Shown piece by piece: positions 1,602 through 36,544 of a stretch of 64,000 bases of DNA. The DNA is from Escherichia coli (GTDB taxonomy: Bacteria > Pseudomonadota > Gammaproteobacteria > Enterobacterales > Enterobacteriaceae), in NCBI RefSeq assembly GCF_044324785.1, contig NZ_CP172127.1; one strand, written 5' to 3'. The stretch's first letter is position 1; every line of letters starts with the position of its first letter. The translations under genes and the position numbers were made by a program. A model generated the notes under the pieces. That model was not told the origin of the DNA and ran no database searches. It saw nothing but the letters and a program-made list of their open reading frames with translations.

Positions 1602-1948
1602 AAATTCTCCTGTAAAACGCGGAATATACCGTACCTCTTAGCGGGGAAAAACAGGGTTATGCGGCAACGTCGAAATTAAATGTGATCTGCCACGCCTTTT
1701 ATCACAAAAGTGTCTCCGGAAGTACGATGCAAATTTGCCTGGCAAAATAAGGATAATCAACATATTACGAATCGCTGCACACCTGTGCTGATGACTACTA
1801 CGCAGAGAAACAAATGTGCAAGAGAAAGCGCTATTTCTCCCCATGCAAAGAGTGAAAAATCGCTTTGAAAGGCCATCATGATGGGGTTATATCAGATCAA
1901 GCGGTGAGAAAGCGTATTTGCACAAATGTGCAGAACCAGGAGGCGGCA

Positions 1949-2896
1949 ATGGAAAACAGTGACGATATCCGTTTGATTGTGAAGATTGCCCAACTCTATT
2001 ACGAACAGGATATGACGCAGGCGCAAATCGCGCGCGAACTGGGTATTTACCGCACCACCATCAGCCGCTTGCTTAAACGAGGCCGCGATCAGGGAATTGT
2101 CACCATCGCCATCAACTATGACTACAACGAAAATCTCTGGCTGGAGCAGCAACTGAAGCAAAAGTTTGGCCTGAAAGACGTTGTGGTGGTGTCGGGAAAT
2201 GATGAGGATGAAGAGACTCAACTGGCGATGATGGGGTTACACGGCGCGCAACTGCTGGATCGCTTGCTGGAGCCTGGCGATATTGTCGGTTTTTCCTGGG
2301 GTCGCGCGGTGAGCGCACTGGTTGAAAACTTGCCGCAGGCGGGGCAATCGCGGCAGTTAATCTGCGTACCAATTATTGGCGGACCGTCCGGTAAACTCGA
2401 AAGCCGCTATCATGTAAACACATTAACCTACAGCGCGGCAGCGAAGTTGAAAGGGGAATCGCATCTCGCGGATTTTCCGGCTCTACTGGATAACCCATTA
2501 ATTCGTAATGGGATCATGCAGTCTCAGCACTTTAAAACCATCTCTGCCTACTGGGATAATCTGGATGTCGCCCTGGTGGGAATTGGCTCACCGGCCATTC
2601 GCGACGGCGCTAACTGGCATGCGTTTTATGGTGGTGAAGAGAGTGACGACCTGAATGCCCGCCAGGTTGCTGGCGATATTTGCTCGCGCTTTTTTGATAT
2701 TCACGGCGCAATGGTTGAAACGAATATGAGCGAAAAAACACTCTCTATCGAAATGAATAAATTAAAGCAGGCGCGATATTCCATTGGCATTGCCATGAGC
2801 GAAGAAAAATACAGTGGAATTGTTGGTGCACTGCGTGGAAAATATATTAATTGTCTGGTAACGAATAGCAGCACAGCTGAACTATTACTGAAATAA
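1949..2896 (+). CDS. sorC: SorC-family transcriptional regulator of the sorbose operon
   Basis: 315 aa from ATG 1949 with AGGAGG RBS at 1937-1942; N-terminal HTH (MTQAQIARELGIYRTTISRLLKRG) plus sugar-phosphate binding domain; the ORF track's longer form uses an upstream TTG that I consider less likely. Confidence 0.8.
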   Translation: MENSDDIRLIVKIAQLYYEQDMTQAQIARELGIYRTTISRLLKRGRDQGIVTIAINYDYNENLWLEQQLKQKFGLKDVVVVSGNDEDEETQLAMMGLHGAQLLDRLLEPGDIVGFSWGRAVSALVENLPQAGQSRQLICVPIIGGPSGKLESRYHVNTLTYSAAAKLKGESHLADFPALLDNPLIRNGIMQSQHFKTISAYWDNLDVALVGIGSPAIRDGANWHAFYGGEESDDLNARQVAGDICSRFFDIHGAMVETNMSEKTLSIEMNKLKQARYSIGIAMSEEKYSGIVGALRGKYINCLVTNSSTAELLLK

Positions 2897-2965
2897 AAAT
2901 CTTCCCGATGTTTACCGTAATAAAAATTACGGCGGGTCCCTATTATCTAAAATCAGGAGTCTGTT

Positions 2966-3772
2966 ATGCAAACGTGGTTAAATTTGCAGGATAAAATCAT
3001 TATCGTCACCGGCGGCGCATCCGGTATTGGTCTGGCGATTGTAGAGGAATTATTAGCACAAGGCGCAAATGTACAGATGGTCGATATTCACGGTGGCGAT
3101 GGTCAATATGAAGGTCATAAAGGCTATCAGTTTTGGCCGACCGATATTTCCAGCGCCAAAGAGGTAAATCATACGGTAGCGGAAATTATCCAGCGTTTTG
3201 ATCGCATCGACGGTCTGGTCAATAACGCCGGGGTCAATTTCCCGCGTCTGCTGGTCGATGAGAAAGCGCCTGCCGGGCAGTATGAACTCAACGAAGCTGC
3301 ATTCGAAAAAATGGTCAATATCAACCAGAAAGGCGTTTTTCTGATGTCACAGGCGGTGGCGCGACAGATGGTCAAACAACATGATGGCGTGATTGTGAAT
3401 GTTTCCTCAGAAAGTGGACTGGAAGGCTCAGAAGGCCAAAGCTGTTACGCCGCGACCAAAGCCGCGCTTAATAGCTTCACGCGCTCCTGGTCGAAAGAGC
3501 TGGGTAAGCACGGTATCCGTGTGGTCGGTATCGCGCCGGGGATTCTGGAAAAAACAGGACTGCGCACGCCGGAATATGAAGAAGCGCTGGCGTGGACGCG
3601 CAATATCACCGTCGAGCAGCTGCGTGAAGGCTATACCAAAAATTCCATTCCTATTGGGCGCGCCGGAAGATTAGCAGAAGTGGCTGATTTTGTTTGTTAT
3701 CTGCTGTCTGAACGCGCCAGCTATATCACCGGAGTAACCACTAACATTGCAGGCGGCAAAACGCGCGGTTAA
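2966..3772 (+). CDS. sorD: Short-chain dehydrogenase, D-glucitol(sorbitol)-6-phosphate dehydrogenase type
   Basis: 268 aa; SDR Rossmann motif TGGASGIGLA and catalytic YAATKAA; second gene of the operon. Confidence 0.8.
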   Translation: MQTWLNLQDKIIIVTGGASGIGLAIVEELLAQGANVQMVDIHGGDGQYEGHKGYQFWPTDISSAKEVNHTVAEIIQRFDRIDGLVNNAGVNFPRLLVDEKAPAGQYELNEAAFEKMVNINQKGVFLMSQAVARQMVKQHDGVIVNVSSESGLEGSEGQSCYAATKAALNSFTRSWSKELGKHGIRVVGIAPGILEKTGLRTPEYEEALAWTRNITVEQLREGYTKNSIPIGRAGRLAEVADFVCYLLSERASYITGVTTNIAGGKTRG

Positions 3773-3781
3773 GGAGGCTTT

Positions 3782-4189
3782 ATGGTCAATGCCATTTTTT
3801 GCGCCCACGGCAAATTAGCCTGCGCCATGCTGGAATCGGTTCAGATGGTGTACGGCGATGCCAGGGTCGAGGCCGTTGAATTTGTGCCCGGCGAGAACGC
3901 CGGAGACATTGTGGCAAAGCTGGAGAAGTTAGTGAGCATTCACAATCATGACGAGTGGCTAATCGCCGTGGATTTACAGTGCGGCAGCCCGTGGAATGCG
4001 GCAGCGATGCTTGCGATGCGCAATCCTCGCCTGCGGGTAATCAGCGGCCTTTCTCTGCCGCTGGCGCTCGAACTGGTTGATAACCAGGACAGCATGAATG
4101 TTGATGAACTGTGTGAACACCTGACGCAAATCGCAAAGCAAACCTGCGTCGTCTGGAGACAGGTGGCAACAGCAGAGGAGGATTTCTGA
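3782..4189 (+). CDS. sorF: PTS mannose/sorbose-family EIIA component
   Basis: 135 aa; N-terminal AHG active-site histidine region typical of EIIA-Man; stop overlaps sorB start (ATGA). Confidence 0.8.
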   Translation: MVNAIFCAHGKLACAMLESVQMVYGDARVEAVEFVPGENAGDIVAKLEKLVSIHNHDEWLIAVDLQCGSPWNAAAMLAMRNPRLRVISGLSLPLALELVDNQDSMNVDELCEHLTQIAKQTCVVWRQVATAEEDF

Positions 4190-4683
4190 TGAACATTACG
4201 CTCGCCCGCATTGATGACCGCCTGATCCACGGCCAGGTCACTACCGTCTGGTCTAAAGTGGCTAACGCCCAGCGCATTATTATCTGCAATGACGAAGTTT
4301 ATAACGATGAAGTTCGCCGGACATTATTGCGTCAGGCTGCGCCACCGGGAATGAAGGTTAACGTGGTCAATATTGAAAAAGCCGTCGCGGTTTATCACAA
4401 CCCGCAATATCAGGACGAAACCGTTTTTTATCTTTTCACTCGCCCACAGGATGCCTTAGCGATGGTTCGCCAGGGGGTAAAAATAGGCACCCTGAATATT
4501 GGCGGCATGGCCTGGCGGCCCGGTAAAAAACAGTTAACCAAAGCGGTTTCATTAGATGATGATGATATTAACGCATTTCATGAGTTAAATAATCTTGGCG
4601 TCATACTGGATTTACGCGTCGTAGCGTCAGATCCCTCAATCAATATTATCGACAAAATAAACGAACAGTTAATCGCAAATTAA
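4189..4683 (+). CDS. sorB: PTS mannose/sorbose-family EIIB component
   Basis: 164 aa; RIDDRLIHGQV motif (phospho-His of EIIB-Man). Confidence 0.8.
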   Translation: MNITLARIDDRLIHGQVTTVWSKVANAQRIIICNDEVYNDEVRRTLLRQAAPPGMKVNVVNIEKAVAVYHNPQYQDETVFYLFTRPQDALAMVRQGVKIGTLNIGGMAWRPGKKQLTKAVSLDDDDINAFHELNNLGVILDLRVVASDPSINIIDKINEQLIAN

Positions 4684-4748
4684 ATAATAGCGCCTGTGTA
4701 CATATGCTTTAACAGGCAGGGATGACGACACTTAAAAGGTGACAAATC

Positions 4749-5546
4749 ATGGAAATAAGTACCCTACAAATCATTGCTATATTTCTTTTTTCCTGTATTG
4801 CCGGAATGGGCAGCGTGCTGGATGAATTTCAGACTCATCGCCCATTAATTGCCTGTACGGTGATTGGTTTAATTCTCGGTGATTTAAAAACCGGAATAAT
4901 ACTCGGTGGTACGCTGGAATTGATAGCTCTCGGCTGGATGAACGTCGGCGCGGCGCAATCTCCGGATTCCGCGCTCGCCAGCATTATCTCCGCCATTCTG
5001 GTTATCGTTGGTCAGCAAAGCATCGCCACCGGTATCGCCATCGCGTTGCCTGTGGCTGCTGCAGGCCAGGTACTGACGGTGTTTGCCCGCACCATCACCG
5101 TAGTGTTCCAGCACGCGGCGGATAAAGCAGCGGAAGAAGCACGGTTTCGCACTCTCGATATTCTGCATGTCTCCGCGCTTGGCGTGCAGGCGCTGCGCGT
5201 TGCTATTCCGGCACTAATTGTCTCGCTGTTCGTCAGCGCTGATATGGTGAGCAATATGCTGAGCGCCATTCCCGAATTTGTGACCCGTGGACTGCAGATT
5301 GCTGGCGGTTTTATCGTGGTGGTCGGTTACGCCATGGTGCTTCGCATGATGGGCGTGAAATATTTGATGCCTTTCTTTTTCCTCGGTTTCCTCGCAGGTG
5401 GCTACCTCGATCTCAGTCTGCTGGCGTTCGGTGGCGTCGGCGTGATCATGGCCCTGCTCTACATCCAGTTAAATCCACAGTGGCGTAAAGCTGAACCACA
5501 TCCCCAGACCACCACTATCACCGCCCTTGACCAACTTGATGATTAA
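4749..5546 (+). CDS. sorA: PTS mannose/sorbose-family EIIC permease
   Basis: 265 aa, strongly hydrophobic multi-pass membrane protein; operon position. Confidence 0.8.
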   Translation: MEISTLQIIAIFLFSCIAGMGSVLDEFQTHRPLIACTVIGLILGDLKTGIILGGTLELIALGWMNVGAAQSPDSALASIISAILVIVGQQSIATGIAIALPVAAAGQVLTVFARTITVVFQHAADKAAEEARFRTLDILHVSALGVQALRVAIPALIVSLFVSADMVSNMLSAIPEFVTRGLQIAGGFIVVVGYAMVLRMMGVKYLMPFFFLGFLAGGYLDLSLLAFGGVGVIMALLYIQLNPQWRKAEPHPQTTTITALDQLDD

Positions 5547-5556
5547 CGGAGCCATC

Positions 5557-6381
5557 ATGGAACAGAGAAAAATTACACGCAGCGATCTGGTGAGCATGTT
5601 TCTGCGCTCCAACCTGCAACAGGCGTCCTTCAACTTTGAACGCATTCATGGGCTGGGCTTTTGTTACGACATGATCCCCGCCATCAAACGACTTTACCCA
5701 TTAAAAGAGGATCAGGTTGCGGCGCTCAGGCGACACCTGGTGTTCTTCAATACCACGCCAGCCGTATGTGGCCCGGTCATCGGCGTCACTGCCGCCATGG
5801 AAGAGGCGCGGGCCAACGGCGCGGAAATTGATGACGGTACCATTAACGGCATCAAAGTCGGTCTGATGGGACCATTGGCAGGAGTTGGCGATCCACTGGT
5901 CTGGGGAACGCTGCGCCCGATTACCGCCGCGCTCGGCGCATCTCTGGCACTTTCGGGCAACATTCTCGGCCCGCTGCTGTTTTTCTTTATTTTCAATGCG
6001 GTGCGTCTGGCGATGAAGTGGTATGGCCTACAGCTCGGCTTTCGCAAAGGGGTGAATATCGTCAGCGATATGGGCGGGAATGTGCTGCAAAAACTCACCG
6101 AAGGCGCGTCGATTCTCGGACTGTTTGTGATGGGCGTGCTGGTGACCAAATGGACGTCAATCAACGTACCGTTGGTGGTTTCACAAACGCATGCCGCCGA
6201 TGGCTCCACCGTCACCATGACCGTGCAGAACATTCTCGACCAACTTTGCCCTGGTTTGCTGGCGCTCGGTCTGACGCTACTGATGGTTCGTCTGCTCAAC
6301 AAAAAAATTAACCCGGTATGGCTGATTTTCGCCCTGTTTGGCTTAGGGATTATCGGCAATGCGCTGGGCTTCCTGTCCTGA
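5557..6381 (+). CDS. sorM: PTS mannose/sorbose-family EIID permease
   Basis: 274 aa from ATG 5557 (MEQRKITRSDLV...); EIID-Man-like membrane protein; the ORF track start at 5527 would overlap the sorA 3' end. Confidence 0.8.
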   Translation: MEQRKITRSDLVSMFLRSNLQQASFNFERIHGLGFCYDMIPAIKRLYPLKEDQVAALRRHLVFFNTTPAVCGPVIGVTAAMEEARANGAEIDDGTINGIKVGLMGPLAGVGDPLVWGTLRPITAALGASLALSGNILGPLLFFFIFNAVRLAMKWYGLQLGFRKGVNIVSDMGGNVLQKLTEGASILGLFVMGVLVTKWTSINVPLVVSQTHAADGSTVTMTVQNILDQLCPGLLALGLTLLMVRLLNKKINPVWLIFALFGLGIIGNALGFLS

Positions 6382-6432
6382 TTCTTCGCCCCGGCACGAC
6401 TGCCGGGGCCATCGCTCAACATGAGGTGGTTT

Positions 6433-7662
6433 ATGAAAACAACAGCTCTGCGTCTTTATGGTAAACGTGATTTACGCCTGGAAACCTTTGATCTTCCTGA
6501 AATGCAGGAGGATGAAATCCTCGCGACGGTGGTCACTGACAGCCTGTGCCTCTCTTCCTGGAAAGAGGCCAACCTGGGTGAAAACCATAAAAAAGTACCC
6601 GACGATGTGGCGACCAACCCAATCATCATCGGCCACGAGTTTTGCGGCGATATTCTGGCCGTGGGTAAAAAGTGGCAGCACAAATTCCAGCCGGGTCAGC
6701 GTTATGTGATTCAGGCCAACCTGCAACTCCCCGACCGCCCGGACTGCCCCGGCTACTCCTTCCCGTGGGTGGGCGGCGAAGCCACGCATGTGGTTATCCC
6801 AAATGAGGTTATGGAACAAGATTGCCTGCTGGCATACGACGGCGAAACCTATTTTGAAGGCTCGCTGGTTGAACCGCTTTCCTGCGTGATTGGCGCGTTC
6901 AACGCCAACTATCATCTTCAGGAAGGTAGTTATAACCACACGATGGGGATTCGCCCGCAAGGGCGCACGCTGATCCTCGGCGGCACCGGACCAATGGGAC
7001 TGTTGGCGATTGATTATGCGCTGCATGGACCCGTTAACCCGTCGCTGCTCGTCATTACCGATACCGACAACGACAAATTGAGTTATGCGCGCAAGCACTA
7101 TCCATCAGAACCGCAAACACTGATTCATTATCTCAATGCCGCCGATGCAGCATTTGATACGTTAATGGCACTGAGTGGCGGTCACGGCTTCGATGATATT
7201 TTCGTCTTTGTGCCTAATGAAGGACTGGTGACTCTCGCCTCTTCCTTGCTGGCGACAGATGGTTGTCTGAATTTCTTCGCCGGACCGCAGGATAAGCACT
7301 TCAGCGCGCCAATTAATTTCTACGATGTGCATTATGCATTTACCCACTACGTGGGCACGTCAGGCGGCAATACCGACGACATGCGCGCAGCGGTCAAATT
7401 GATTGAAGAGAAAAAAGTGCAGGCCGCAAAAGTGGTAACACATATTCTTGGGCTGAATGCCGCGGGCGAAACCACGCTTGAATTGCCTGCCGTCGGCGGC
7501 GGCAAAAAGCTGGTGTATACAGGGAAATACCTGCCGCTGACGTCACTCACGCAGATTCAGGATCAAGCACTGGCGGCGATTCTGGCGCGTCATCAGGGGA
7601 TCTGGTCCGGTGAGGCGGAGCAATACCTGCTCGCCCATGCAGAAGCAATTTCCCATGATTAA
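6433..7662 (+). CDS. sorE: Zn-dependent dehydrogenase, L-sorbose-1-phosphate reductase type
   Basis: 409 aa from ATG 6433 (MKTTALRLYGKRD...); MDR/alcohol-dehydrogenase family with GHEFCG zinc motif; last gene of the operon. Confidence 0.75.
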   Translation: MKTTALRLYGKRDLRLETFDLPEMQEDEILATVVTDSLCLSSWKEANLGENHKKVPDDVATNPIIIGHEFCGDILAVGKKWQHKFQPGQRYVIQANLQLPDRPDCPGYSFPWVGGEATHVVIPNEVMEQDCLLAYDGETYFEGSLVEPLSCVIGAFNANYHLQEGSYNHTMGIRPQGRTLILGGTGPMGLLAIDYALHGPVNPSLLVITDTDNDKLSYARKHYPSEPQTLIHYLNAADAAFDTLMALSGGHGFDDIFVFVPNEGLVTLASSLLATDGCLNFFAGPQDKHFSAPINFYDVHYAFTHYVGTSGGNTDDMRAAVKLIEEKKVQAAKVVTHILGLNAAGETTLELPAVGGGKKLVYTGKYLPLTSLTQIQDQALAAILARHQGIWSGEAEQYLLAHAEAISHD

Positions 7663-10673: not shown

Positions 10674-14357
<3,684 letters not shown>

Positions 14358-14518
14358 ACTTGCTCCCGACACGCTCAACCCAGATTTAATAAAAATTCAA
14401 CAAACCATACTGGCATAAACGCATCTGTGGTAAAAGCGACCACCACGCAACATGAGATTTGTTCAACATTAACTCATCGGATCAGTTCAGCAACTATTGC
14501 ATTAGCTAACAATAAAAA

Positions 14519-14533
14519 TGAAAATGATTTCCA
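14519..14533. promoter_or_regulatory. IclR autoregulatory operator in the iclR promoter
   Basis: Near-palindrome TGAAAATGATTTCCA about 25 nt upstream of the iclR ATG. Confidence 0.55.
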
Positions 14534-14556
14534 CGATACAGAAAAAGGAGACTGTC

Positions 14557-15381
14557 ATGGTCGCACCCATTCCCGCGAAACGCGGCAGAAAACCCGCCGT
14601 TGCCACCGCACCAGCGACTGGACAGGTTCAGTCTTTAACGCGTGGCCTGAAATTACTGGAGTGGATTGCCGAATCCAATGGCAGTGTGGCACTCACGGAG
14701 CTGGCGCAACAAGCCGGGTTACCCAATTCCACGACCCACCGCCTGCTAACCACGATGCAACAGCAGGGTTTCGTGCGTCAGGTTGGCGAACTGGGACACT
14801 GGGCAATCGGCGCACATGCCTTTATGGTCGGCAGCAGCTTTCTCCAGAGCCGTAATTTGTTAGCAATTGTTCACCCTATCCTGCGCAATCTAATGGAAGA
14901 GTCTGGCGAAACGGTCAATATGGCGGTGCTTGATCAAAGCGATCACGAAGCGATTATTATCGACCAGGTACAGTGTACCCACCTGATGCGAATGTCCGCG
15001 CCTATCGGCGGTAAATTACCTATGCACGCTTCCGGTGCGGGTAAAGCCTTTTTAGCCCAACTGAGCGAAGAACAGGTGACGAAGCTGCTGCACCGCAAAG
15101 GGTTACATGCCTATACCCACGCAACGCTGGTGTCTCCTGTGCATTTAAAAGAAGATCTCGCCCAAACGCGCAAACGGGGCTATTCATTTGACGATGAGGA
15201 ACATGCACTGGGGCTACGTTGCCTTGCAGCGTGTATTTTCGATGAGCACCGTGAACCGTTTGCCGCAATTTCTATTTCCGGACCGATTTCACGTATTACC
15301 GATGACCGCGTGACCGAGTTTGGCGCGATGGTGATTAAAGCGGCGAAGGAAGTGACGCTGGCGTACGGTGGAATGCGCTGA
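14557..15381 (+). CDS. iclR: Glyoxylate-shunt repressor IclR
   Basis: 274 aa from MVAPIPAKRGRKPAVATAPATGQVQSL...; IclR-type HTH plus effector domain. Confidence 0.95.
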   Translation: MVAPIPAKRGRKPAVATAPATGQVQSLTRGLKLLEWIAESNGSVALTELAQQAGLPNSTTHRLLTTMQQQGFVRQVGELGHWAIGAHAFMVGSSFLQSRNLLAIVHPILRNLMEESGETVNMAVLDQSDHEAIIIDQVQCTHLMRMSAPIGGKLPMHASGAGKAFLAQLSEEQVTKLLHRKGLHAYTHATLVSPVHLKEDLAQTRKRGYSFDDEEHALGLRCLAACIFDEHREPFAAISISGPISRITDDRVTEFGAMVIKAAKEVTLAYGGMR

Positions 15382-15697
15382 CTTTTTCTGGCGGGCAGAG
15401 GCAATATTCTGCCCATCATACCTGAGTGGCAATAGAATAAGGGTGTCTGTTAATCGCATTGATGCCAAAATAACTTAATGTCATACACTTCACACACTTT
15501 TATTAACTCAGTATTATTTTTAAACATCAAACCACTTAATTATTAACAAAATCGCAAGATCTCATTCCACCGAAACTTTTACGGCTGCATTATGAGATTG
15601 AGCGATTTATGATATTTCTTTACTTGTAATCATATTAAATTTTTTCACTGTTCTGATAGTTAAAATTCAAGACATCAATAAACAATGAGATATTTAA

Positions 15698-19598
<3,901 letters not shown>

Positions 19599-19637
19599 TT
19601 AATTCGCCCCTCGCCTTACGGAAAGGGGCGTTGGTTG

Positions 19638-20942
19638 TTAGAACTGCGATTCTTCGGTGGAGCCGGTCAGAGCAGTAACTGAAGACGTACCGCCCTGAAT
19701 AATGGTCGTCACTTTATCGAAATAACCTGTGCCCACTTCCTGCTGGTGAGAAACGAAGGTGTAACCATCTTTCGCGGCGGCGAATTCCGGTTGCTGCACT
19801 TTCTCAACATAGTGCTTCATACCTTCGCCCTGGGCATAGGCGTTTGCCAGGTCGAACATGTTGAACCACATGCTGTGGATGCCTGCCAGGGTGATGAACT
19901 GGAACTTGTAGCCCATATCCGACAGCTGCTGCTGGAAGCTGGCAATAGTTTTGTCGTCGAGGTTTTTCTGCCAGTTGAACGACGGCGAGCAGTTATAAGC
20001 CAGCAGTTTGCCCGGATATTTCGCGTGGATGGCTTGTGCAAAGCGACGCGCCAGTTCCAGGTCTGGCGTGGAGGTTTCACACCATACCAGGTCAGCATAT
20101 GGCGCATACGCCAGGCCACGGCTGATCGCTTGCTCAATGCCCGCATGAGTACGGAAGAAGCCTTCGCTGGTACGCTCGCCGGTAATAAATTCGCTGTCAT
20201 ACGGGTCGCAATCGGAGGTAATCAGATCCGCCGCATCGGCATCGGTTCGAGCAACCAGCAGGGTTGGAACGCCCGTCACGTCAGCTGCCAGACGCGCCGC
20301 GACCAGTTTCTGAATAGCTTCCTGAGTTGGCACCAGCACTTTGCCGCCCATGTGACCACATTTCTTCACTGATGCCAGCTGATCTTCGAAGTGAACTGCC
20401 GCTGCACCGGCTTCAATCATCGCTTTCATCAGTTCAAAGGCATTCAGGACACCGCCAAAACCGGCTTCCGCATCGGCAACGATCGGCAGGAAGTAATCCA
20501 CATAGCGCGGATCACCCGGCTCAATGCCCGCGGACCATTGGATCTGATCCGCACGGCGGAAGGTATTGTTGATCCGCTCCACCACCGCTGGCACCGAGTT
20601 TGCCGGATAGAGCGACTGATCCGGATACATGCTGGCCGCCAGGTTAGCGTCCGCCGCTACCTGCCATCCCGACAGATAGACCGCTTCAATACCCGCTTTC
20701 GCCTGTTGCAGCGCCTGACCGCCAGTCAGTGCACCGAGGCTGTTGATGTAGCCTTTTTTCGACTCGCCGTGCAGCAGACGCCACATTTTCGCCGCGCCCA
20801 GTTGCGCCAGGGTGCATTCAGGATTGACTGAACCGCGTAATTTCACCACATCTTCCGCGCTGTAGGGGCGAGTAATGCCTTCCCAACGCGGTTGAGTCCA
20901 CTCTTTCTGTAATTCTTCAATTTGTTGTGTACGGGTTTTCAT
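19638..20942 (-). CDS. aceA: Isocitrate lyase
   Basis: 434 aa from [27 protein letters not shown]...; catalytic KKCGH motif. Confidence 0.95.
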
Positions 20943-20971
20943 GTGCAGATGCTCCATAGTTATGTGGTGGT

Positions 20972-22573
20972 TTACGCTAACAGGCGGTAGCCTGGCAGGG
21001 TCAGGAAATCAATTAACTCATCGGAAGTGGTGATCTGTTCCATCAAGCGTGCGGCATCGTCAAAACGCCCCTGGGAGAATCGTTCTTCGCCCAGTTCGCT
21101 GGCAATGACTTTCATCTCTTCGCCCAGCATCTGGCGGAACAAGGCTTTGGTCACCGGTTTGCCATTGCTCAACGTTTTTTGATGATGGATCCACTGCCAG
21201 ATTGAGGTACGGGAAATTTCAGCCGTCGCCGCATCTTCCATCAGGCCATAAATCGGCACGCAGCCGTTGCCAGAGATCCATGCTTCGATGTACTGCACAG
21301 CCACGCGAATGTTGGCGCGCATACCTTCTTCGGTGCGTTCACCATCACAAGGTGCCAGCAGCTGATCGGCAGTAATCGGCGCGTCTTGTTCGCGCATCAC
21401 TTCAAGCTGATTTTTACGGGAGCCGAGAATGTCGTTGAATACCGCCATTGCCGTATCCGCAAGGCCTGGGTGGGCAATCCATGTACCATCGTGACCGTTA
21501 TTAGCTTCCAGCGATTTATCCGCTTTTACTTTGTTGAGCACCTGGTTATTGCGCTCTTCATCTTTGCTCGGAATAAATGCCGCCATACCGCCCATCGCAA
21601 AAGCACCGCGTTTATGGCAGGTTTTAATCAACAGGCGTGAGTAAGCATTCAGAAATGGTTTATCCATCGTCACTGCCTGTCTGTCTGGCAGGACGCGATC
21701 GGGATAGTTTTTCAACGTTTTGATATAACTGAAGATGTAATCCCAACGACCGCAGTTCAGACCAACAATATGGTCACGCAGCGCGTGAAGGATTTCATCC
21801 ATCTGGAACACGGCGGGCAGCGTTTCAATCAGCAACGTCGCCTTGATGGTGCCGCGCGGCAGATTAAAGCGATCTTCTGCATAGCTGAAGACTTCGCTCC
21901 ACCAGGCCGCTTCCTGCCAGGACTGGGTTTTCGGCAGATAGAAATAGGGACCACTGCCCTTTGCCAACAGTGCCTGATAGTTGTGGAAGAAATAGAGCGC
22001 AAAATCAAACAGGCTACCGGGGATTGCCTCACCACGCCAGGTGACATGTTTTTCCGGCAAGTGCAGACCGCGTACCCGACAAATCAACACCGCTGGATTG
22101 GGCTTGAGCTGATAAATTTTGCCTGCTTCATTGGTATAGCTGATGGTGCCGTTAACCGCATCGCGCAGGTTAATTTGCCCGTCGATCACTTTGTTCCAGT
22201 CTGGTGCCAGTGAATCTTCGAAATCGGCCATAAAGACTTTCACATTGGCGTTGAGCGCGTTGATCACCATCTTGCGCTCAACCGGGCCGGTAATCTCTAC
22301 CCGACGATCTTCTAAGTCCGCAGGAATCCCGCGAATTTTCCAGTCAGCATCACGAATGGAAGCTGTTTCCGAAATAAAATCAAGCAACGTTCCGTTATCG
22401 ATATCCTGCTGCTGCTGAATGCGCGCTGCCAGAAGTTTATTGCGTTGTGGCGTAAAATGCGTCACCAGCTCAGTCAGAAATTCTACCGCTTCGGCAGTAA
22501 GAATTTGCTTCTCCTGCTCGCCATACGGCCTTGTGAAAGCCAATTCATCGGTTGTTGTTGCCTGTTCACTCAT
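20972..22573 (-). CDS. aceB: Malate synthase A
   Basis: 533 aa from [20 protein letters not shown]...; ORF track shows a longer upstream extension. Confidence 0.95.
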
Positions 22574-22659
22574 CGTGCAGCTCCTCGTCATGGATCCGAA
22601 AACTTCCCACTGTGAACGAAGGATCGTTGTGCGCTTTTCGTTCAGCACAACTAAGACTA

Positions 22660-22700
22660 CTCATTTAAAATGCAAAATCAAAAACAATTTCCATTTTAAT
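22660..22700 (-). promoter_or_regulatory. aceBAK promoter region with IclR operator
   Basis: Reverse complement reads aatggaaattgtttttgattttgcattttaaatgag, an IclR-box-like sequence upstream of aceB. Confidence 0.55.
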
Positions 22701-22771
22701 TAAAAATATCTGATAACTTATTGATAACAATATGAATAAAATTTATTCACCTGCTGAGGTGTGTGTCGGAA

Positions 22772-22797
22772 ATAAAAAAGGCACCCGAAGGTGCCTG
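22772..22797 (-). terminator. Intrinsic terminator of metA
   Basis: Hairpin ggcaccttcgggtgcc followed by a T-tract on the minus strand, about 45 nt after the metA stop. Confidence 0.7.
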
Positions 22798-22840
22798 AGG
22801 TAAAGTGCTGAATCGCTTAACGATCGACTATCACAGAAGA

Positions 22841-23770
22841 TTAATCCAGCGTTGGGTTCATGTGCCGTAGATCGTATGGCGTGATCTGGTAGACGTAATA
22901 GTTGAGCCAGTTGGTAAACAGCAAATTACCGTGACTACGCCAGCTCGCTCGCGGTGTATTTTGCGGATCATTATGCGGGAAATAGTTATACGGTACATCC
23001 GGGTCTAGTCCGGCTTCCACATCGCGGAAAAACTCCTGCGCCAGCGTTTGCGCATCATATTCGGGATGGCCCGTCACAAAGGCAATGCGCTTATCTTTGC
23101 TGGCAAACAGATAGGCATCCCCTTCTTCTGTCTCCGCCAGAATTTCCAGATCGGTATAATCACGAATCAACGCTGCCGGAAAGTCAGCATAGCGCGAATG
23201 TGGTGCCAGGAATGAATCATCAAAGCCACGCGTCAGAAGCGCATGAGGATGGAGAATATGATGCTCGTAAACGCCAGAGAGTTTGTCGGTGCGGGTTTGC
23301 TTAGGAATGCCGTAGAGGATATTGAGCGCGGCCTGGACAGCCCAACAGACAAACAGCGTCGAGGTGACGTGATCTTTCGACCACTCCAGCACCTGTTTGA
23401 TCTGCGGCCAGTAAGCGACATCATTAAACTCCACCAGGCCCAGCGGCGCGCCGGTAACTATCAGACCGTCAAAGTTTTGTTCCTGAATATCTTCAAAGTT
23501 ACAGTAGAAGTTATTCAGATGCTCTGCGGGCGTGTTGCGCGATTCACGGGAATCGATGCGCAACAGCTGAATATCGACCTGCAAAGGTGAGTTTGAAAGC
23601 AGGCGCAGAAACTGATTTTCAGTTTCGATCTTCTTCGGCATCAGGTTAAGGATAAGCACCTTTAGCGGACGAATTTCCTGACCAGACGCGCGAGAAGTTG
23701 TCATCACAAAGACGTTTTCTTCACGCAAGAAATTGACGGCGGGTAGCTCGTCCGGCACACGAATCGGCAT
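22841..23770 (-). CDS. metA: Homoserine O-succinyltransferase
   Basis: 309-aa [48 protein letters not shown]... Confidence 0.95.
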
Positions 23771-23784
23771 AACCTGATTACCTC

Positions 23785-23825
23785 ACTACATACGCTTATA
23801 CGTTTAGACATCCAGATAGCTGAAG
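23785..23825 (-). promoter_or_regulatory. Possible tandem MetJ boxes in the metA leader
   Basis: Minus-strand sequence ggATGTCTaaACGTATaaGCGTAT gives three 8-mers resembling the AGACGTCT met-box consensus. Confidence 0.35.
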
Positions 23826-23926
23826 ATAACCAGAAAATTTGCCAATGTCGAGCCTGCATGTTGAAGGTGAGAAAGTTTCAAGGAAAAGACTACGTTAGAA
23901 TATAAGAATGACTAAAAGGAGAGAAA

Positions 23927-24370
23927 ATGGTTATTAGTATTCGCCGTTCACGGCATGAGGAAGGGGAGGAACTGGTTGCGATTTGGTGCCGTTCTGTCGA
24001 TGCCACTCACGATTTTTTATCAGCAGAGTATCGGGCCGAGCTGGAAGAGCTGGTGCGTTCCTTCCTGCCGGAAGCACCGTTGTGGGTCGCGGTTAATGAG
24101 CGGGATCAGCCAGTTGGGTTTATGCTGTTAAGTGGGCAGCATATGGATGCGCTTTTTATCGATCCTGATGCACGCGGCTGTGGCGTGGGCCGGATGCTGG
24201 TGGAACATGCGCTCTCGATGGCACCGGAACTGACAACCAATGTTAATGAGCAAAATAAGCAGGCTGTTGGGTTCTATAAGAAGATGGGTTTTAAGGTTAC
24301 GGGACGCTCTGAGGTGGACGATTTGGGGAAACCGTATCCGTTGCTGAATCTGGCGTATGTGGGGGGATAA
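23927..24370 (+). CDS. yjaB: GNAT-family N-acetyltransferase
   Basis: 147-aa ORF with acetyl-CoA binding motif (RGCGVGRMLVEHAL). Confidence 0.85.
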   Translation: MVISIRRSRHEEGEELVAIWCRSVDATHDFLSAEYRAELEELVRSFLPEAPLWVAVNERDQPVGFMLLSGQHMDALFIDPDARGCGVGRMLVEHALSMAPELTTNVNEQNKQAVGFYKKMGFKVTGRSEVDDLGKPYPLLNLAYVGG

Positions 24371-24400
24371 TGCGGATATTTACACTCGCCGCAACTCTTC

Positions 24401-24437
24401 GTAGGTCGGGTAAGACGCGCCTGCGTCGCATCCGGCC
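24401..24437. repeat. REP element between yjaB and the rRNA operon terminators
   Basis: gtaggtcgggtaagacgcgcctgcgtcgcatccggcc. Confidence 0.6.
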
Positions 24438-24454
24438 TTTTTCTGCACCAGCGC

Positions 24455-24483
24455 AAAAAGGCCCAGTCTTCCGACCGGGCCTT
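24455..24483 (-). terminator. rRNA operon distal terminator (T2-like)
   Basis: Reverse complement matches the rrnB T2 hairpin as I recall it; GC stem plus T-tract. Confidence 0.7.
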
Positions 24484-24616
24484 CTGCTTAATTTGATGCC
24501 TGGCAGTTTATGGCGGGCGTCCTGCCCGCCACCCTCCGGGCCGTTGCTTCGCAACGTTCAAATCCGCTCCCGGCGGATTTGTCCTACTCAGGAGAGCGTT
24601 CACCGACAAACAACAG

Positions 24617-24660
24617 ATAAAACAAAAGGCCCAGTCTTTCGACTGAGCCTTTTGTTTTAT
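24617..24660 (-). terminator. rRNA operon terminator T1
   Basis: Reverse complement ataaaacaaaaggctcagtcgaaagactgggccttttgttttat immediately 3' of 5S. Confidence 0.8.
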
Positions 24661-24663
24661 TTG

Positions 24664-24783
24664 ATGCCTGGCAGTTCCCTACTCTCGCATGGGGAGACCC
24701 CACACTACCATCGGCGCTACGGCGTTTCACTTCTGAGTTCGGCATGGGGTCAGGTGGGACCACCGCGCTACGGCCGCCAGGCA
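24664..24783 (-). rRNA. rrfE: 5S ribosomal RNA
   Basis: Reverse complement matches E. coli 5S over 120 nt (TGCCTGGCGGCCGTAGCGCGGTGGTCCCACCTGACCCCATGCCGAACTCAG...). Confidence 0.95.
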
Positions 24784-24875
24784 AATTCTGTTTCATCAGA
24801 CCGCTTCTGCGTTCTGATTTAATCTGTATCAGGCTGAAAATCTTCTCTCAATCCGCCAAAACAGCTTCGGCGTTG

Positions 24876-27781: not shown

Positions 27782-27974
27782 TCACAACCCGAAGATGTTT
27801 CTTTCGATTCATCATCGTGTTGCAAAAATTTGAGAGACTCACGAACAACTTTCGTTGTTCAGTGTTTCAATTTTCAGCTTGATCCAGATTTTTAAAGAGC
27901 AAATATCTCAAACATCACCCGAAGATGAGTTTTGAGATATCAAGGCAGGTGACTTTCACTCACAAACCAGCAAG

Positions 27975-29972: not shown

Positions 29973-30060
29973 ATTATAGGGAGTTCTCCGCAGGCCGCAA
30001 TAGAAAAATTGCAGAAAAATGACTGACTGCTGCATTCCCCAGCAAAACCCCGCTTTATAC
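29973..30060 (-). promoter_or_regulatory. rrn P1 promoter with upstream A/T-rich UP element region
   Basis: Minus-strand TTGCGG(-35) N16 TATAAT(-10), with an A/T-rich tract further upstream. Confidence 0.65.
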
Positions 30061-30171
30061 CTTTTTACGCACAGAGTTATCCACAATCATCAATGTAATT
30101 TCTGTATTTTTCCCACGGTAACCACTGTCAAAATTGTGATCACCATTGAAAGAGAAAAATTCGCGAGCGTT

Positions 30172-30187
30172 GCGCAAACGTTTTCGT
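30172..30187. promoter_or_regulatory. PurR operator (pur box) of purHD
   Basis: GCGCAAACGTTTTCGT, close to the palindromic consensus ACGCAAACGTTTGCGT, directly upstream of a TACAAT -10-like hexamer. Confidence 0.65.
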
Positions 30188-30294
30188 TACAATGCGGGCG
30201 AAAAATAAGGATGCCCCGTTAGGGGCGTTAGCTGAGTTTTTCGCGAAAAATTCAGCTAACGCTCTCTGTAATAGTCAAATCCAGGGGATTTACC

Positions 30295-31884
30295 ATGCAA
30301 CAACGTCGTCCAGTCCGCCGCGCTCTGCTCAGTGTTTCTGACAAAGCCGGTATCGTCGAATTCGCCCAGGCACTTTCCGCACGCGGTGTGGAGCTGCTGT
30401 CTACAGGGGGCACTGCCCGTCTGTTAGCAGAAAAAGGTCTGCCGGTAACCGAAGTTTCCGATTACACCGGTTTCCCGGAGATGATGGATGGACGCGTGAA
30501 GACCCTGCATCCGAAAGTACATGGTGGCATTCTGGGCCGTCGCGGCCAGGACGATGCCATTATGGAAGAACATCAGATCCAGCCTATCGATATGGTGGTT
30601 GTTAACCTGTATCCGTTCGCCCAGACCGTTGCCCGTGAAGGCTGCTCACTGGAAGATGCGGTTGAGAACATCGATATCGGCGGCCCAACGATGGTGCGCT
30701 CCGCCGCCAAGAACCATAAAGATGTCGCAATCGTGGTGAAGAGCAGCGACTACGACGCCATTATTAAAGAGATGGATGCCAACGAAGGATCGCTGACGCT
30801 TGCAACCCGTTTCGACCTTGCCATCAAAGCCTTCGAACACACTGCCGCCTACGACAGCATGATTGCGAACTACTTCGGCAGCATGGTTCCGGCTTACCAC
30901 GGTGAAAACAAAGAAGCCGCTGGTCGCTTCCCACGCACGCTGAACCTGAACTTCATTAAGAAGCAGGATATGCGTTACGGCGAGAACAGCCACCAGCAGG
31001 CTGCCTTCTATATAGAAGAGAATGTGAAAGAAGCCTCCGTTGCCACCGCAACCCAGGTTCAGGGTAAAGCCCTCTCTTATAACAACATCGCCGATACCGA
31101 TGCGGCGCTGGAGTGCGTGAAAGAGTTCGCCGAGCCGGCATGTGTGATTGTGAAGCACGCCAACCCTTGCGGCGTGGCTATCGGCCATTCCATTCTTGAT
31201 GCTTACGATCGCGCGTACAAAACCGACCCAACCTCCGCATTCGGCGGCATCATTGCCTTTAACCGCGAGCTGGATGCGGAAACCGCACAGGCCATCATTT
31301 CTCGTCAGTTTGTCGAAGTGATTATTGCGCCTTCCGCCAGCGAAGAAGCCCTGAAAATCACCGCCGCCAAGCAGAACGTACGCGTTCTGACCTGCGGTCA
31401 GTGGGGCGAGCGTGTTCCGGGTCTTGATTTCAAACGTGTTAACGGCGGTCTGCTGGTTCAGGATCGCGATCTGGGCATGGTCGGTGCAGAAGAACTGCGC
31501 GTCGTCACCAAACGTCAGCCGACCGAACAGGAACTGCGTGATGCGTTGTTCTGCTGGAAAGTGGCGAAGTTCGTGAAATCCAACGCCATTGTCTATGCCA
31601 AAAACAATATGACCATCGGTATTGGCGCAGGCCAGATGAGCCGCGTGTACTCCGCAAAAATCGCCGGTATTAAAGCGGCCGATGAAGGCCTGGAAGTGAA
31701 AGGTTCCTCGATGGCTTCTGACGCGTTCTTCCCGTTCCGCGACGGTATTGATGCCGCCGCCGCTGCGGGCGTGACCTGCGTAATCCAGCCTGGCGGTTCT
31801 ATCCGTGATGACGAAGTGATTGCCGCCGCCGACGAGCACGCTATTGCGATGCTCTTCACCGACATGCGCCACTTCCGCCATTAA
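30295..31884 (+). CDS. purH: Bifunctional AICAR transformylase / IMP cyclohydrolase
   Basis: 529-aa [43 protein letters not shown]... Confidence 0.95.
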
Positions 31885-31895
31885 TGGAGCGACAG

Positions 31896-33185
31896 ATGAA
31901 AGTATTAGTGATTGGTAACGGCGGGCGCGAGCACGCGCTGGCCTGGAAAGCGGCCCAGTCGCCGCTGGTTGAAACTGTTTTTGTTGCTCCGGGTAATGCA
32001 GGCACTGCGCTGGAACCCACACTGCAAAACGTCGCTATCGGCGTAACCGATATCCCGGCGCTGCTGGATTTCGCGCAAAACGAAAAGATCGATCTAACCA
32101 TCGTCGGCCCGGAAGCGCCGCTGGTGAAAGGCGTAGTGGATACCTTCCGCGCCGCCGGGCTGAAAATCTTCGGCCCAACCGCAGGTGCCGCGCAGCTGGA
32201 AGGCTCGAAAGCGTTTACCAAGGATTTCCTGGCCCGCCATCAGATCCCTACGGCGGAATACCAGAACTTCACCGAGGTAGAACCTGCGCTGGCGTATCTG
32301 CGTGAGAAAGGCGCGCCAATCGTCATTAAAGCTGACGGTCTGGCTGCCGGGAAAGGCGTTATCGTGGCGATGACGCAGGAAGAAGCGGAAGCGGCTGTTC
32401 ACGATATGCTGGCGGGCAACGCTTTTGGCGACGCGGGGCATCGCATCGTTATCGAAGAGTTCCTCGACGGCGAAGAAGCGAGCTTTATCGTGATGGTGGA
32501 CGGTGAGCATGTGCTGCCGATGGCCACCAGCCAGGATCACAAACGCGTAGGCGATAAAGATACCGGGCCGAACACCGGCGGGATGGGCGCTTACTCCCCT
32601 GCGCCAGTAGTGACCGATGAGGTTCATCAGCGCACGATGGAACGAATCATCTGGCCAACCGTGAAAGGCATGGCGGCAGAAGGCAACACCTACACCGGTT
32701 TTCTCTACGCGGGCCTGATGATCGACAAACAGGGCAATCCGAAGGTTATCGAATTTAACTGCCGCTTTGGCGATCCGGAAACCCAGCCGATTATGCTGCG
32801 CATGAAGTCCGATCTGGTTGAGCTCTGCCTGGCAGCCTGTGAAGGTACGCTTGACGAGAAAACGTCCGAGTGGGATGAACGCGCTTCTCTCGGCGTGGTG
32901 ATGGCTGCGGGTGGATATCCGGGCGATTACCGCACCGGCGATGTGATCCACGGCCTGCCGCTGGAAGAAGTGTCTGACGGCAAAGTGTTCCACGCGGGCA
33001 CGAAACTGGCGGATGACGAGCAGGTAGTGACCAGCGGCGGGCGCGTACTGTGCGTCACCGCGCTGGGTCATACTGTGGCAGAAGCGCAGAAACGCGCTTA
33101 TGCCTTAATGACCGATATCCATTGGGACGACTGCTTCTGCCGGAAAGATATCGGCTGGCGCGCTATCGAACGCGAGCAGAACTAA
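31896..33185 (+). CDS. purD: Phosphoribosylamine-glycine ligase
   Basis: 429 aa from MKVLVIGNGGREHALAWK...; ATP-grasp fold. Confidence 0.95.
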   Translation: MKVLVIGNGGREHALAWKAAQSPLVETVFVAPGNAGTALEPTLQNVAIGVTDIPALLDFAQNEKIDLTIVGPEAPLVKGVVDTFRAAGLKIFGPTAGAAQLEGSKAFTKDFLARHQIPTAEYQNFTEVEPALAYLREKGAPIVIKADGLAAGKGVIVAMTQEEAEAAVHDMLAGNAFGDAGHRIVIEEFLDGEEASFIVMVDGEHVLPMATSQDHKRVGDKDTGPNTGGMGAYSPAPVVTDEVHQRTMERIIWPTVKGMAAEGNTYTGFLYAGLMIDKQGNPKVIEFNCRFGDPETQPIMLRMKSDLVELCLAACEGTLDEKTSEWDERASLGVVMAAGGYPGDYRTGDVIHGLPLEEVSDGKVFHAGTKLADDEQVVTSGGRVLCVTALGHTVAEAQKRAYALMTDIHWDDCFCRKDIGWRAIEREQN

Positions 33186-34507
33186 CGCGACAGTTTTGCC
33201 AAGAGCGTTTTGCGCGTGATCCCTAACTGACGGGCGGCTTCGGTTTTGTTGCCGCCCGTTTTCTCCAGTGCCGCAAGAATCACCTCTTTTTCGACTTCCA
33301 CCAGCGGCTGAATATCCTGACTTTGTACCAGCGGGATCGGCGTACTCGCAATCGCCAGCGGCAGCTCGCGTTCGGAAATATATTCCCCGGTCAGCAGCAC
33401 CACCGCCCGTTCCACCGCGTTTTCCAGTTCACGAATATTTCCCGGCCAGTCGTAGTGAATCAGCAGATCCATCGCCTGGGGCGTAAAACCTTTTACCGCC
33501 TTGCGATTACGCTCGGCAAAGCGCTGAAGAAAATGGTTTGCCAGCAGAGGAATATCTTCCCGCCGCTGACGCAGCGACGGAACTTCAATCGCCACCACGT
33601 TCAGGCGATAGTAGAGATCCTGGCGAAAACGCCCGGCATTCACCTCTGCGGCAAGATCGCGATGAGTCGCCGCAATCAGCCGGACATCAACCGAGATGGT
33701 CTGGTTGCTGCCGACACGCTGAACTTCGCGCTCCTGAATCGCACGCAGCAGACGAACCTGCATCATCGGCGAGATATCGCCAATTTCATCGAGAAACAGC
33801 GTGCCGCCGTCCGCCTCAACAAAGCGCCCTTCCCGGCGTTTGTCGGCTCCGGTAAACGCCCCTTTTTCGTGACCGAACAATTCAGATTCCAGCAAGGATT
33901 CGTTGAGTGCCGCACAGTTGAGCGTTACCAGTGGTTTTTCACTCCGTGCGCTACTGGCGTGAATCGCCCTGGCGACCAGCTCTTTACCGGTGCCGGAATC
34001 GCCGTGGATCAGCACTGTGGCTTCCGATGGCGCGACGAGGGCGATTTCACTGAGCAGGTGTTGCATCGCCGGGCTTTTACCGACCATACCGAACTGGCTG
34101 GCAGACACCGCAGGCGTTTCAGCGTCAATACTGTGCGTATGCGCGAGCACCTTTTCCAGCGTCGCCTGCAGGTTATCGAAATCCAGCGGCTTGATGAGAT
34201 AATCCAGCGCCCCGGTTTTCAGTGCCTCTACCGCCGTCTCGACGCTGGAGTATGCGGTCATAATCAGTACCGGAATCGCCGGATTTAACGCTTTGATCTC
34301 TTTTAGCGTGGCAATGCCGTCCATCTCCGCCATTCGCACATCGCAAAGCACAAGATCAAAAACTCGCTCCCGCACCTGTTCCAGCGCCTGTCGCCCGCTG
34401 TTCGCCAGCGCGACGTTATAGCCCCAGCCGCGCAGTAAAGCCTGCAAAATAGTGCAGTGGCTAATGTCATCATCCACCACCAGAATATCGATATTATCGT
34501 GCGTCAT
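33182..34507 (-). CDS. zraR: Sigma-54-dependent response regulator ZraR (HydG)
   Basis: 441 aa; receiver domain, AAA+ sigma54-activator domain (GESGTGKE, GAFTGA) and C-terminal HTH. Confidence 0.95.
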
Positions 34508-35880: not shown

Positions 35881-35911
35881 CTTCTTCTTTGCCTGCTCAT
35901 CCCTTTCTGAC

Positions 35912-35929
35912 AGCAGAAATCATGCCATC
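35912..35929 (-). promoter_or_regulatory. Sigma-54 promoter for zraSR
   Basis: Minus-strand TGGCATgatttCTGCT with GG-N10-GC spacing. Confidence 0.6.
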
Positions 35930-36543: not shown

Positions 36544-36544
36544 A

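What the first reader, a model, noticed from the sequence alone, without database searches (positions are those of the whole stretch)
24371..24663. No yjaA gene between yjaB and the rRNA operon
As I recall the K-12 map, yjaA (about 127 aa, the Clermont phylogroup-typing marker) lies between yjaB and rrfE. Here only 293 bp separate the yjaB stop from the 5S gene, occupied by a REP element and rrnB-like T2/T1 terminators, with no plausible ORF. That would make this a yjaA-negative lineage (phylogroups such as B1, D or E rather than A or B2). The sorbose operon is consistent with a non-K-12 background.
Basis: partly seen in the sequence, partly recalled or inferred. Interest (0 to 1): 0.3.

Follow-up and report, generated by a model that had tools for sequence, protein, structure and literature searches.

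The report
yjaA-less junction behind ribosomal operon rrnE
This E. coli-like sequence lacks the small typing-marker gene yjaA behind the rrnE ribosomal RNA operon and has only terminators and a repeat element there, an ordinary arrangement shared by about half of all complete E. coli genomes.

Summary
yjaB ends at 24370 and the mature 5S rRNA 3' end is at 24664. The 293 bp between them hold a REP element, a T2-like hairpin, a 5S-3'-end-like relic and a T1 hairpin, and no real ORF.

K-12 has 520 bp here: its own single terminator plus yjaA. The two versions share no homology between the 5S end and the yjaB stop.

No trace of yjaA exists anywhere in the 64 kb. Among 5,426 complete E. coli genomes, 2,793 have the contiguous yjaB-5S junction and 2,594 have yjaA. 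These two sets are almost exact complements.

The nearest genome at this locus, strain N3, has no yjaA anywhere. In-window typing gives arpA-positive (exact 400-bp amplicon), which rules out B2 and F, and the E-specific arpA primers mismatch at their 3' ends. The sorbose operon is also absent from K-12.

yjaA sits at the same site in Phytobacter and Kosakonia, and strain HH45 has a decayed copy, so loss is the likelier direction. E. whittamii carries a K-12-like yjaA segment in a ~93% identical background, which points to haplotype exchange by recombination.

This is the already known polymorphism behind Clermont typing. Interest is low.

The parts
23927..24370 (+). yjaB (GNAT lysine acetyltransferase). 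It converges on the rrnE operon. This is a divergent allele: 93.9% nt identity to K-12, 95.0% to SE11, 99.8% to N3.
24371..24663 (.). The 293-bp spacer that takes the place of the 520 bp of K-12 (single rrnE terminator, yjaA and the yjaA-yjaB intergenic region). It shows no homology to the K-12 version.
24401..24432 (-). REP element (imperfect palindrome GATGCGACGC..GCGTCTTACCCGACCTAC).
   Evidence: single consensus match, 0 expected; for the fold; aligned with the SE11 and N3 REPs
24453..24487 (-). T2-like intrinsic terminator hairpin plus U-tract, the distal one of the tandem pair. Its flanks are identical to K-12 rrnB T2, but the stem-loop sequence differs and resembles T1.
24488..24616 (-). 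T1-T2 spacer. It begins with a copy of the 5S 3' end (direct repeat 24456-24508 / 24624-24676, 89%) and is nearly identical to the K-12 rrnB T1-T2 spacer.
24617..24660 (-). T1 terminator: a 20-bp stem directly after the 5S gene.
24664..24783 (-). 5S rRNA gene of the rrnE-type operon (16S, tRNA-Glu, 23S, 5S, downstream of purHD).
17864..18263 (.). In-silico aceK-arpA Clermont amplicon. Both primers match exactly and the product is 400 bp, so the window is arpA-positive. The arpA ORF is 15698-17884 (+).
1865..7662 (+). Sorbose utilisation operon (regulator, SDR oxidoreductase, PTS IIA/IIB/IIC/IID, sorE) between rluF and pepE. It is absent from K-12.

Best explanation
The window carries the common yjaA-null haplotype of the junction behind rRNA operon rrnE. 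The order is yjaB, one REP element, then the multi-copy rrn 3'-end module (T2 hairpin, 5S-like relic, T1 hairpin), then the 5S gene.

Shown: the spacer contains no yjaA and no other gene. The rrnE transcript ends at two tandem intrinsic terminators instead of the single K-12 rrnE terminator. The same architecture occurs in about 51% of complete E. coli genomes.

Inferred:
1. yjaA is old at this site and the null haplotype arose by loss, through deletion or replacement of the rrnE-distal flank. The likely route is turnover or gene conversion of the rrn 3' flank from an rrnB-type operon end.
2. Both haplotypes have since been moved between lineages, and even between species, by homologous recombination anchored in the conserved rrn operon on one side and in yjaB-metA on the other. 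This would explain the patchy phylogroup distribution that Clermont typing exploits.

The genome is therefore expected to type as yjaA-negative and arpA-positive.
For: - Absence: the alignment with K-12 loses homology exactly at the 5S 3' end and at the yjaB stop. No yjaA signal exists in the window.
- Population: 2,793 of 5,426 genomes have the contiguous yjaB-5S junction and 2,594 have yjaA, with a median of one place per genome. Places for the chimeric query add up exactly (8,715 = 6,115 + 2,600), and N3 gains no place from yjaA.
- Same architecture: SE11 and N3 share it, with the T2-T1 part 98.7% identical in SE11.
- Module is multi-copy: it is present in 4,412 genomes, median 3 places per genome, with 3 places in a K-12 derivative. 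It is nearly identical to K-12 rrnB T1-T2.
- Loss direction: yjaA occupies the same position (yjaB, convergent yjaA, terminator, 5S) in Phytobacter diazotrophicus (66% aa) and Kosakonia (65% aa). Strain HH45 has a 5'-truncated, frameshifted yjaA remnant behind a different terminator hairpin.
- Recombination: E. whittamii differs from K-12 by 0.9% from the 5S gene through yjaA and yjaB to the metA promoter, but by about 6.7% from metA onward.
Against: - Several outgroups lack yjaA: Salmonella arizonae and diarizonae, Citrobacter, Phytobacter massiliensis, and three non-coli Escherichia lineages. S. diarizonae has the same REP-T2-relic-T1 layout at 92% identity. The null state is therefore also old, and an ancestral empty site with a later gain is not excluded.
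- The two haplotypes share no sequence inside the interval, so no deletion breakpoints or conversion tracts can be demonstrated.
- The isolate's whole genome was not available. N3 is a close proxy only at this locus (98.3% over 30000-47200).
Confidence: 0.8

Rival explanations
1. The empty site is ancestral. The window keeps the original rrnE end (REP plus tandem terminators), and yjaA with its own terminator was inserted later in the ancestor of K-12-like haplotypes and then spread by recombination.
For: Most sampled relatives lack yjaA at this site: Salmonella, Citrobacter, P. massiliensis, Escherichia sp. E1V33, MOD1-EC7003 and SCPM-O-B-8794. S. diarizonae shares the REP-T2-relic-T1 layout at 92% identity. 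The E. whittamii segment shows that the yjaA haplotype can move laterally.
Against: yjaA lies at exactly the same position and orientation in Phytobacter diazotrophicus and Kosakonia, with divergence of 65-66% aa. That is what an old orthologue would show, given that YjaB is 77-78% identical in those genera. HH45 shows yjaA decaying in place.
Confidence: 0.17
2. yjaA is not lost but sits elsewhere in this isolate's genome, so the strain would still type yjaA-positive.
For: The whole genome was not available. A few genomes have up to 3 yjaA places and one copy is on a plasmid.
Against: There is no yjaA in the 64 kb. N3 has none anywhere. Carriers (2,594) and genomes with the null junction (2,793) sum to 5,387 of 5,426, and carriers have a median of one place per genome.
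Confidence: 0.02
3. The junction is an assembly artefact, such as a collapse or mis-join at the repeated rrn operon end.
For: The T1-T2 module and the 5S gene are multi-copy repeats, and draft assemblies break here.
Against: The same contiguous junction, including the unique REP-to-yjaB joint, is found in 2,793 complete genomes and base-for-base in SE11 and N3.
Confidence: 0.01

Closest known systems
Clermont phylotyping marker yjaA (presence/absence polymorphism; triplex 2000, quadruplex 2013)
   Same: The window is the yjaA-absent state at the canonical locus. The published yjaA primers match K-12 exactly and have no site in the window within 4 mismatches.
   Different: Nothing differs in kind. 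The typing literature treats yjaA as a plus/minus marker, whereas here the replacing sequence (REP plus tandem terminators) was read out.
E. coli K-12 rrnB T1-T2 tandem terminator region
   Same: The T1 hairpin, the T1-T2 spacer and the T2 flanks are nearly identical to K-12 rrnB. The module lies directly after the 5S gene.
   Different: It sits behind rrnE, not rrnB. The T2 stem-loop has another sequence (GGCCCGGTC/GACTGGGCC instead of GGCCATCC/GGATGGCC). A REP and yjaB follow it instead of murB.
K-12 rrnE distal end (single terminator, yjaA, yjaB)
   Same: The flanks are the same: the 5S gene on one side and yjaB-metA-aceBAK-arpA on the other, in the same order and orientation.
   Different: The 520-bp interval is replaced by an unrelated 293-bp interval with no yjaA and a different terminator set.
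REP (repetitive extragenic palindromic) elements
   Same: It matches the consensus, is an imperfect palindrome, and lies between convergent transcription units.
   Different: It is a single copy rather than a BIME pair. It folds no better than shuffled sequence (z 0.14), which is usual for such short G+C-rich elements.

Membership tests
YjaA family stress response protein (NCBIfam NF041448) | An ORF of about 127 aa matching the family model, located between rrfE and yjaB | tested here: not met
   K-12 YjaA scores 177 bits, but the spacer ORFs match no family. tblastn of YjaA against the whole window gives a best E-value of 3.5.
Clermont yjaA-negative genotype | No yjaA.1b/yjaA.2b amplicon | tested here: met
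   Both primers match K-12 exactly. Neither has a site within 4 mismatches in the window. This was tested only on the 64 kb that includes the canonical locus.
Clermont yjaA-negative genotype | yjaA absent from the whole genome of the isolate | not testable with these tools
   Only the window is available. The proxy N3 has no yjaA and the population counts are complementary.
Phylogroups B1 / D / E (arpA-positive, yjaA-negative profiles) | arpA amplicon of 400 bp with AceK.f/ArpA1.r | tested here: met
   Exact primer sites at 18244-18263 and 17864-17883 give a 400-bp product. The primers are corroborated by the EzClermont table.
Phylogroups B1 / D / E (arpA-positive, yjaA-negative profiles) | chuA and TspE4.C2 status, which separate A, B1 and D/E | not testable with these tools
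   Neither locus lies in the window, and no primer sites were found.
Phylogroup E | E-specific arpA allele (ArpAgpE.f/r, 301 bp) | tested here: not met
   The sites lie 301 bp apart, but both primers mismatch at their 3'-terminal base. EzClermont does not tolerate variation in the last 5 bases of a primer.
rrnB-type tandem T1-T2 terminator module | A strong hairpin plus U-tract directly after the 5S gene (T1), and a second hairpin plus U-tract about 170 nt downstream (T2) | tested here: met
   T1 is -30.9 kcal/mol and T2 is -32.2 kcal/mol, and no shuffle folded as well as either. The module is near-identical to K-12 rrnB except for the T2 stem-loop. Termination activity itself was not tested.
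REP element | Match to the REP consensus and an imperfect palindrome in an intergenic position | tested here: met
   One consensus match at 24401-24432, with 0 expected by chance. The hairpin is predicted.

The most novel reading that the evidence does not exclude
The rrnE-distal junction may be a recombination hot spot. The conserved rRNA operon and yjaB-metA would act as anchors that shuttle whole yjaA-plus or yjaA-null haplotypes between phylogroups and across species borders. E. whittamii carries a ~99% K-12-like 5S-yjaA-yjaB segment in a ~93% background. rrn 3'-flank conversion may repeatedly erode yjaA, as in the HH45 remnant. If so, the classical marker yjaA reports local recombination history rather than clonal descent, and this would predict specific Clermont mis-assignments.
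Probability: 0.45. Interest if true: 0.3.

Novelty: already known. Interest (0 to 1): 0.1.

Why it matters
The practical value is small. It tells an annotator that the missing yjaA is real and not an error. It shows the strain would type yjaA-negative and arpA-positive, so it is not B2 or F. It also shows the sequence comes from a non-K-12, sorbose-positive background. The side observations give a mechanistic reason why yjaA is distributed patchily across phylogroups. They are an old syntenic yjaA in other genera, a decaying copy in HH45, and an interspecies import in E. whittamii. None of this changes any established view.

Tried and rejected
- A literature search for a description of the rrnE-yjaA-yjaB junction found nothing specific. 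A search for the N3 accession CP031609 found no paper.
- My first REP pattern had the wrong internal spacing and gave no match. The corrected pattern worked.
- The terminator scan missed T2, probably because its stem extension consumes part of the U-tract. Folding recovered it.
- The chimeric yjaB+yjaA query first looked as if N3 might hold yjaA, because N3 gave 2 places. A yjaB-only control showed that the second place belongs to yjaB.
- Assigning a phylogroup by nearest complete genomes failed. Nothing exceeds 98.5% identity in the right half of the window, and N3 is close only in the left half.
- E. albertii was uninformative because its contig ends 27 bp after yjaB. E. fergusonii and the E. 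coli species representative were not returned by the scan.
- The 150-aa ORF at 24370-24822 and the 85-aa ORF at 24297-24554 were considered as possible genes. They were rejected because they match no family and overlap the terminators, the REP and the 5S gene.

Full report
**1. The observation**

The window shows the E. coli gene order aceK, aceA, aceB (20972-22648, -), metA (22841-23770, -), yjaB (23927-24370, +). Next comes a complete rRNA operon on the minus strand: 5S, 23S, tRNA-Glu and 16S. purHD follows. This is the rrnE neighbourhood of K-12.

The yjaB product matches the NCBIfam YjaB equivalog at 277 bits. Rfam places the 5S gene at 24666-24781. Reading the sequence puts the mature 3' end (…GCCAGGCAU) at 24664.

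**2. What the 293 bp contain**

On the rrn strand, going outward from the 5S gene:
- T1 is a 20-bp hairpin with a U-rich tail at 24617-24660, -30.9 kcal/mol, z -8.3.
- A spacer follows that begins with a copy of the 5S 3' end. The direct repeat 24456-24508 / 24624-24676 is 89% identical.
- T2 is a second hairpin plus U-tract at 24453-24487, -32.2 kcal/mol, z -5.4.
- A single REP element lies at 24401-24432. It is the only match to the REP consensus in the window, with none expected by chance.

From the 5S gene to the 5' flank of T2 the sequence is almost identical to the K-12 rrnB T1-T2 region. Only the T2 stem-loop differs.

The mechanical 150-aa ORF at 24370-24822 runs through the REP, both terminators and antisense across the 5S gene. 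It matches no protein family, so it is not a gene.

**3. Comparison with K-12**

K-12 MG1655 has rrfE (4213040-4213159), yjaA (b4011, 4213234-4213617, same strand as rrnE), yjaB (b4012, opposite strand) and metA.

The pairwise alignment is collinear through the 5S gene and through yjaB. It loses all homology exactly between the 5S 3' end and the yjaB stop codon. K-12 has 520 bp there: a different, single terminator hairpin (-23.8 kcal/mol), yjaA, and a 62-bp intergenic region. The window has the unrelated 293 bp.

This is a replacement-type polymorphism, not a clean deletion with visible breakpoints. tblastn and sensitive blastn with K-12 yjaA find nothing in the whole 64 kb (best E-values 3.5 and 0.24).

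**4. How common it is, and whether yjaA could be elsewhere**

| Measure (5,426 complete RefSeq E. coli genomes) | Count |
|---|---|
| Contiguous yjaB-to-5S junction covering at least 80% of the query | 2,793 (51.5%) |
| Any blastn match to yjaA (median one place per genome) | 2,594 (47.8%) |
| Sum of the two classes | 5,387 |

Genomes with the null junction therefore do not, as a rule, keep yjaA elsewhere.

SE11 and the O103:H2 and O121 strains listed show the same junction. The SE11 spacer aligns with the window throughout. The T2-T1 part is 98.7% identical, and the REP part has a 10-bp indel and substitutions.

The isolate's own genome is not available, so I used the closest complete genome at this locus as a proxy. 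This is strain N3, which is 99.1% identical over 8000-24370 and 99.8% in yjaB. A chimeric yjaB+yjaA query gives N3 two places in both megablast and blastn modes. yjaB alone also gives two. The collection totals add up exactly (8,715 = 6,115 + 2,600). N3 therefore has no yjaA anywhere.

**5. Typing information inside the window**

arpA lies next to aceK and is present (15698-17884). The quadruplex primers AceK.f and ArpA1.r match exactly and give the published 400-bp product at 17864-18263. The primer sequences are corroborated by the EzClermont table.

From established knowledge of the Clermont 2013 scheme, arpA is missing from B2 and F. Those two phylogroups are therefore excluded independently of yjaA.

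The E-specific arpA primers have sites 301 bp apart, but both mismatch at the 3'-terminal base. That predicts a negative reaction and disfavours phylogroup E.

Phylogroup A is not excluded by a missing yjaA, because A strains with the profile + - - - exist. chuA and TspE4.C2 lie outside the window.

By similarity, the window has no close relative among the complete genomes. The best match over 30000-47200 is 98.5% (for example PCN033), with N3 at only 98.3%. Over 8000-24370 every genome except N3 is at or below 97.9%. The phylogroup therefore stays open, and the lineage looks rare or mosaic.

The sorbose operon (1865-7662) lies between rluF and pepE here and in N3. Those two genes are adjacent in K-12. 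The "non-K-12 background" remark holds.

**6. Direction of the change**

A scan of one genome per species with the window's YjaB returned the junction from 14 relatives. I read the sequence downstream of yjaB in each.

| State at the junction | Taxa |
|---|---|
| yjaA present, same place and orientation | E. whittamii (100% aa to K-12), Phytobacter diazotrophicus (66% aa), Kosakonia sp. S29 (65% aa) |
| yjaA absent, REPs and terminators only | Escherichia sp. E1V33, Escherichia sp. MOD1-EC7003, a ~92% identical Escherichia lineage labelled E. coli SCPM-O-B-8794, two Citrobacter, Salmonella arizonae and diarizonae, Phytobacter massiliensis |

S. diarizonae even has the same REP-T2-relic-T1 layout, at 92% identity to the window. 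Both states are therefore old.

I favour loss, at about 0.65 against 0.25-0.3 for gain, for two reasons:
- The Phytobacter and Kosakonia copies are syntenic and about as diverged as an orthologue should be. YjaB is 77-78% identical in those genera.
- E. coli HH45 shows decay in place. Its yjaA remnant is 5'-truncated and frameshifted, and it lies behind a different, T2-like terminator hairpin.

The T2-relic-T1 module occurs at a median of three places per genome, and three times in a K-12 derivative. Donors for conversion of the rrnE 3' flank are therefore always at hand. This step is an inference, and no conversion tract can be demonstrated.

**7. Exchange of haplotypes**

E. whittamii Sa2BVA5 differs from K-12 at 11 positions in the roughly 1,200 bp from the 5S gene through yjaA and yjaB to the metA promoter (0.9%). 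From metA onward the divergence is about 6.7%.

The sharp step lies between the yjaB-metA intergenic region and the 5' end of metA. It is the signature of an imported segment whose other end lies in or beyond the rRNA operon.

yjaB itself is unusually diverse within E. coli. The window is 93.9% identical to K-12 and 95.0% to SE11, and K-12 is 96.6% identical to SE11.

Both facts fit the idea that the junction haplotypes move by homologous recombination. That would explain why yjaA presence does not follow a single clade.

**8. Comparison with what is known, and verdict**

The presence or absence of yjaA is the long-known basis of the Clermont triplex and quadruplex PCR schemes. The tandem T1-T2 terminators and REP elements are textbook features.

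The window is a normal member of the yjaA-null class. Nothing here is new in kind. The finding is correct, ordinary and already known, and its interest is low.

The only mildly novel thread is the evidence for recombination-driven shuffling, and possibly rrn-flank-driven erosion, of this typing marker. Testing it would need the population-scale analysis described under next steps.

Noticed in passing
L005 (E. whittamii Sa2BVA5) 3001-4035 versus L001 (K-12) 600-3001: E. whittamii is about 99% identical to K-12 from the 5S gene through yjaA and yjaB to the metA promoter (11 differences in 1,200 bp), but only about 93% from metA onward. This looks like an interspecies import of the yjaA-plus haplotype.
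   Followed up: partly
L031 (E. coli HH45, NZ_CP116411) 1432-1827: A third junction state: a 5'-truncated, frameshifted yjaA pseudogene (89% identical to K-12) sits directly behind a T2-like terminator hairpin. In the collection, 7 of the 2,594 yjaA-matching genomes cover less than 80% of the gene.
   Followed up: partly
window 8000-24370 versus 30000-47200: The window has no close relative among 5,426 complete E. coli genomes. N3 is 99.1% identical in the left part, and all others are at or below 97.9%. In the right part the best match is 98.5% and N3 drops to 98.3%. The lineage is rare and locally mosaic.
   Followed up: partly
window 23927-24370 (yjaB); N3 and roughly 690 extra places in E. 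coli genomes: A megablast search with yjaB alone gives 6,115 places in 5,425 genomes, with two in N3. Some genomes therefore carry a second yjaB-like stretch. Its location and nature were not examined.
   Followed up: no
L003 (N3) 3001-3477: The N3 yjaB has a 1-nt deletion in the G-run just before the stop codon. RefSeq therefore annotates it as 477 nt instead of 444 nt, running into the REP.
   Followed up: no
window 1865-7662: A seven-gene sorbose operon (regulator, SDR oxidoreductase, PTS IIA-IID, sorE) is inserted between rluF and pepE. In K-12 these two genes are 211 bp apart.
   Followed up: yes
L004, L009, L011, L012, L013, L014, L015, L016 downstream of yjaB: The rrn-distal flank varies widely among Enterobacteriaceae. 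It can have zero, one or two REPs, and a single or tandem terminator with a 5S-like relic, with or without yjaA. Phytobacter diazotrophicus combines yjaA with a 5S-like relic beyond the first terminator hairpin.
   Followed up: partly
window 27789-27897, 55878-55939, 41527-41627: Rfam gathering-level hits were found to StyR-44 (next to the 23S gene), P26 (rplL-rpoB region) and the thiC TPP riboswitch. These are the expected features of this region.
   Followed up: no
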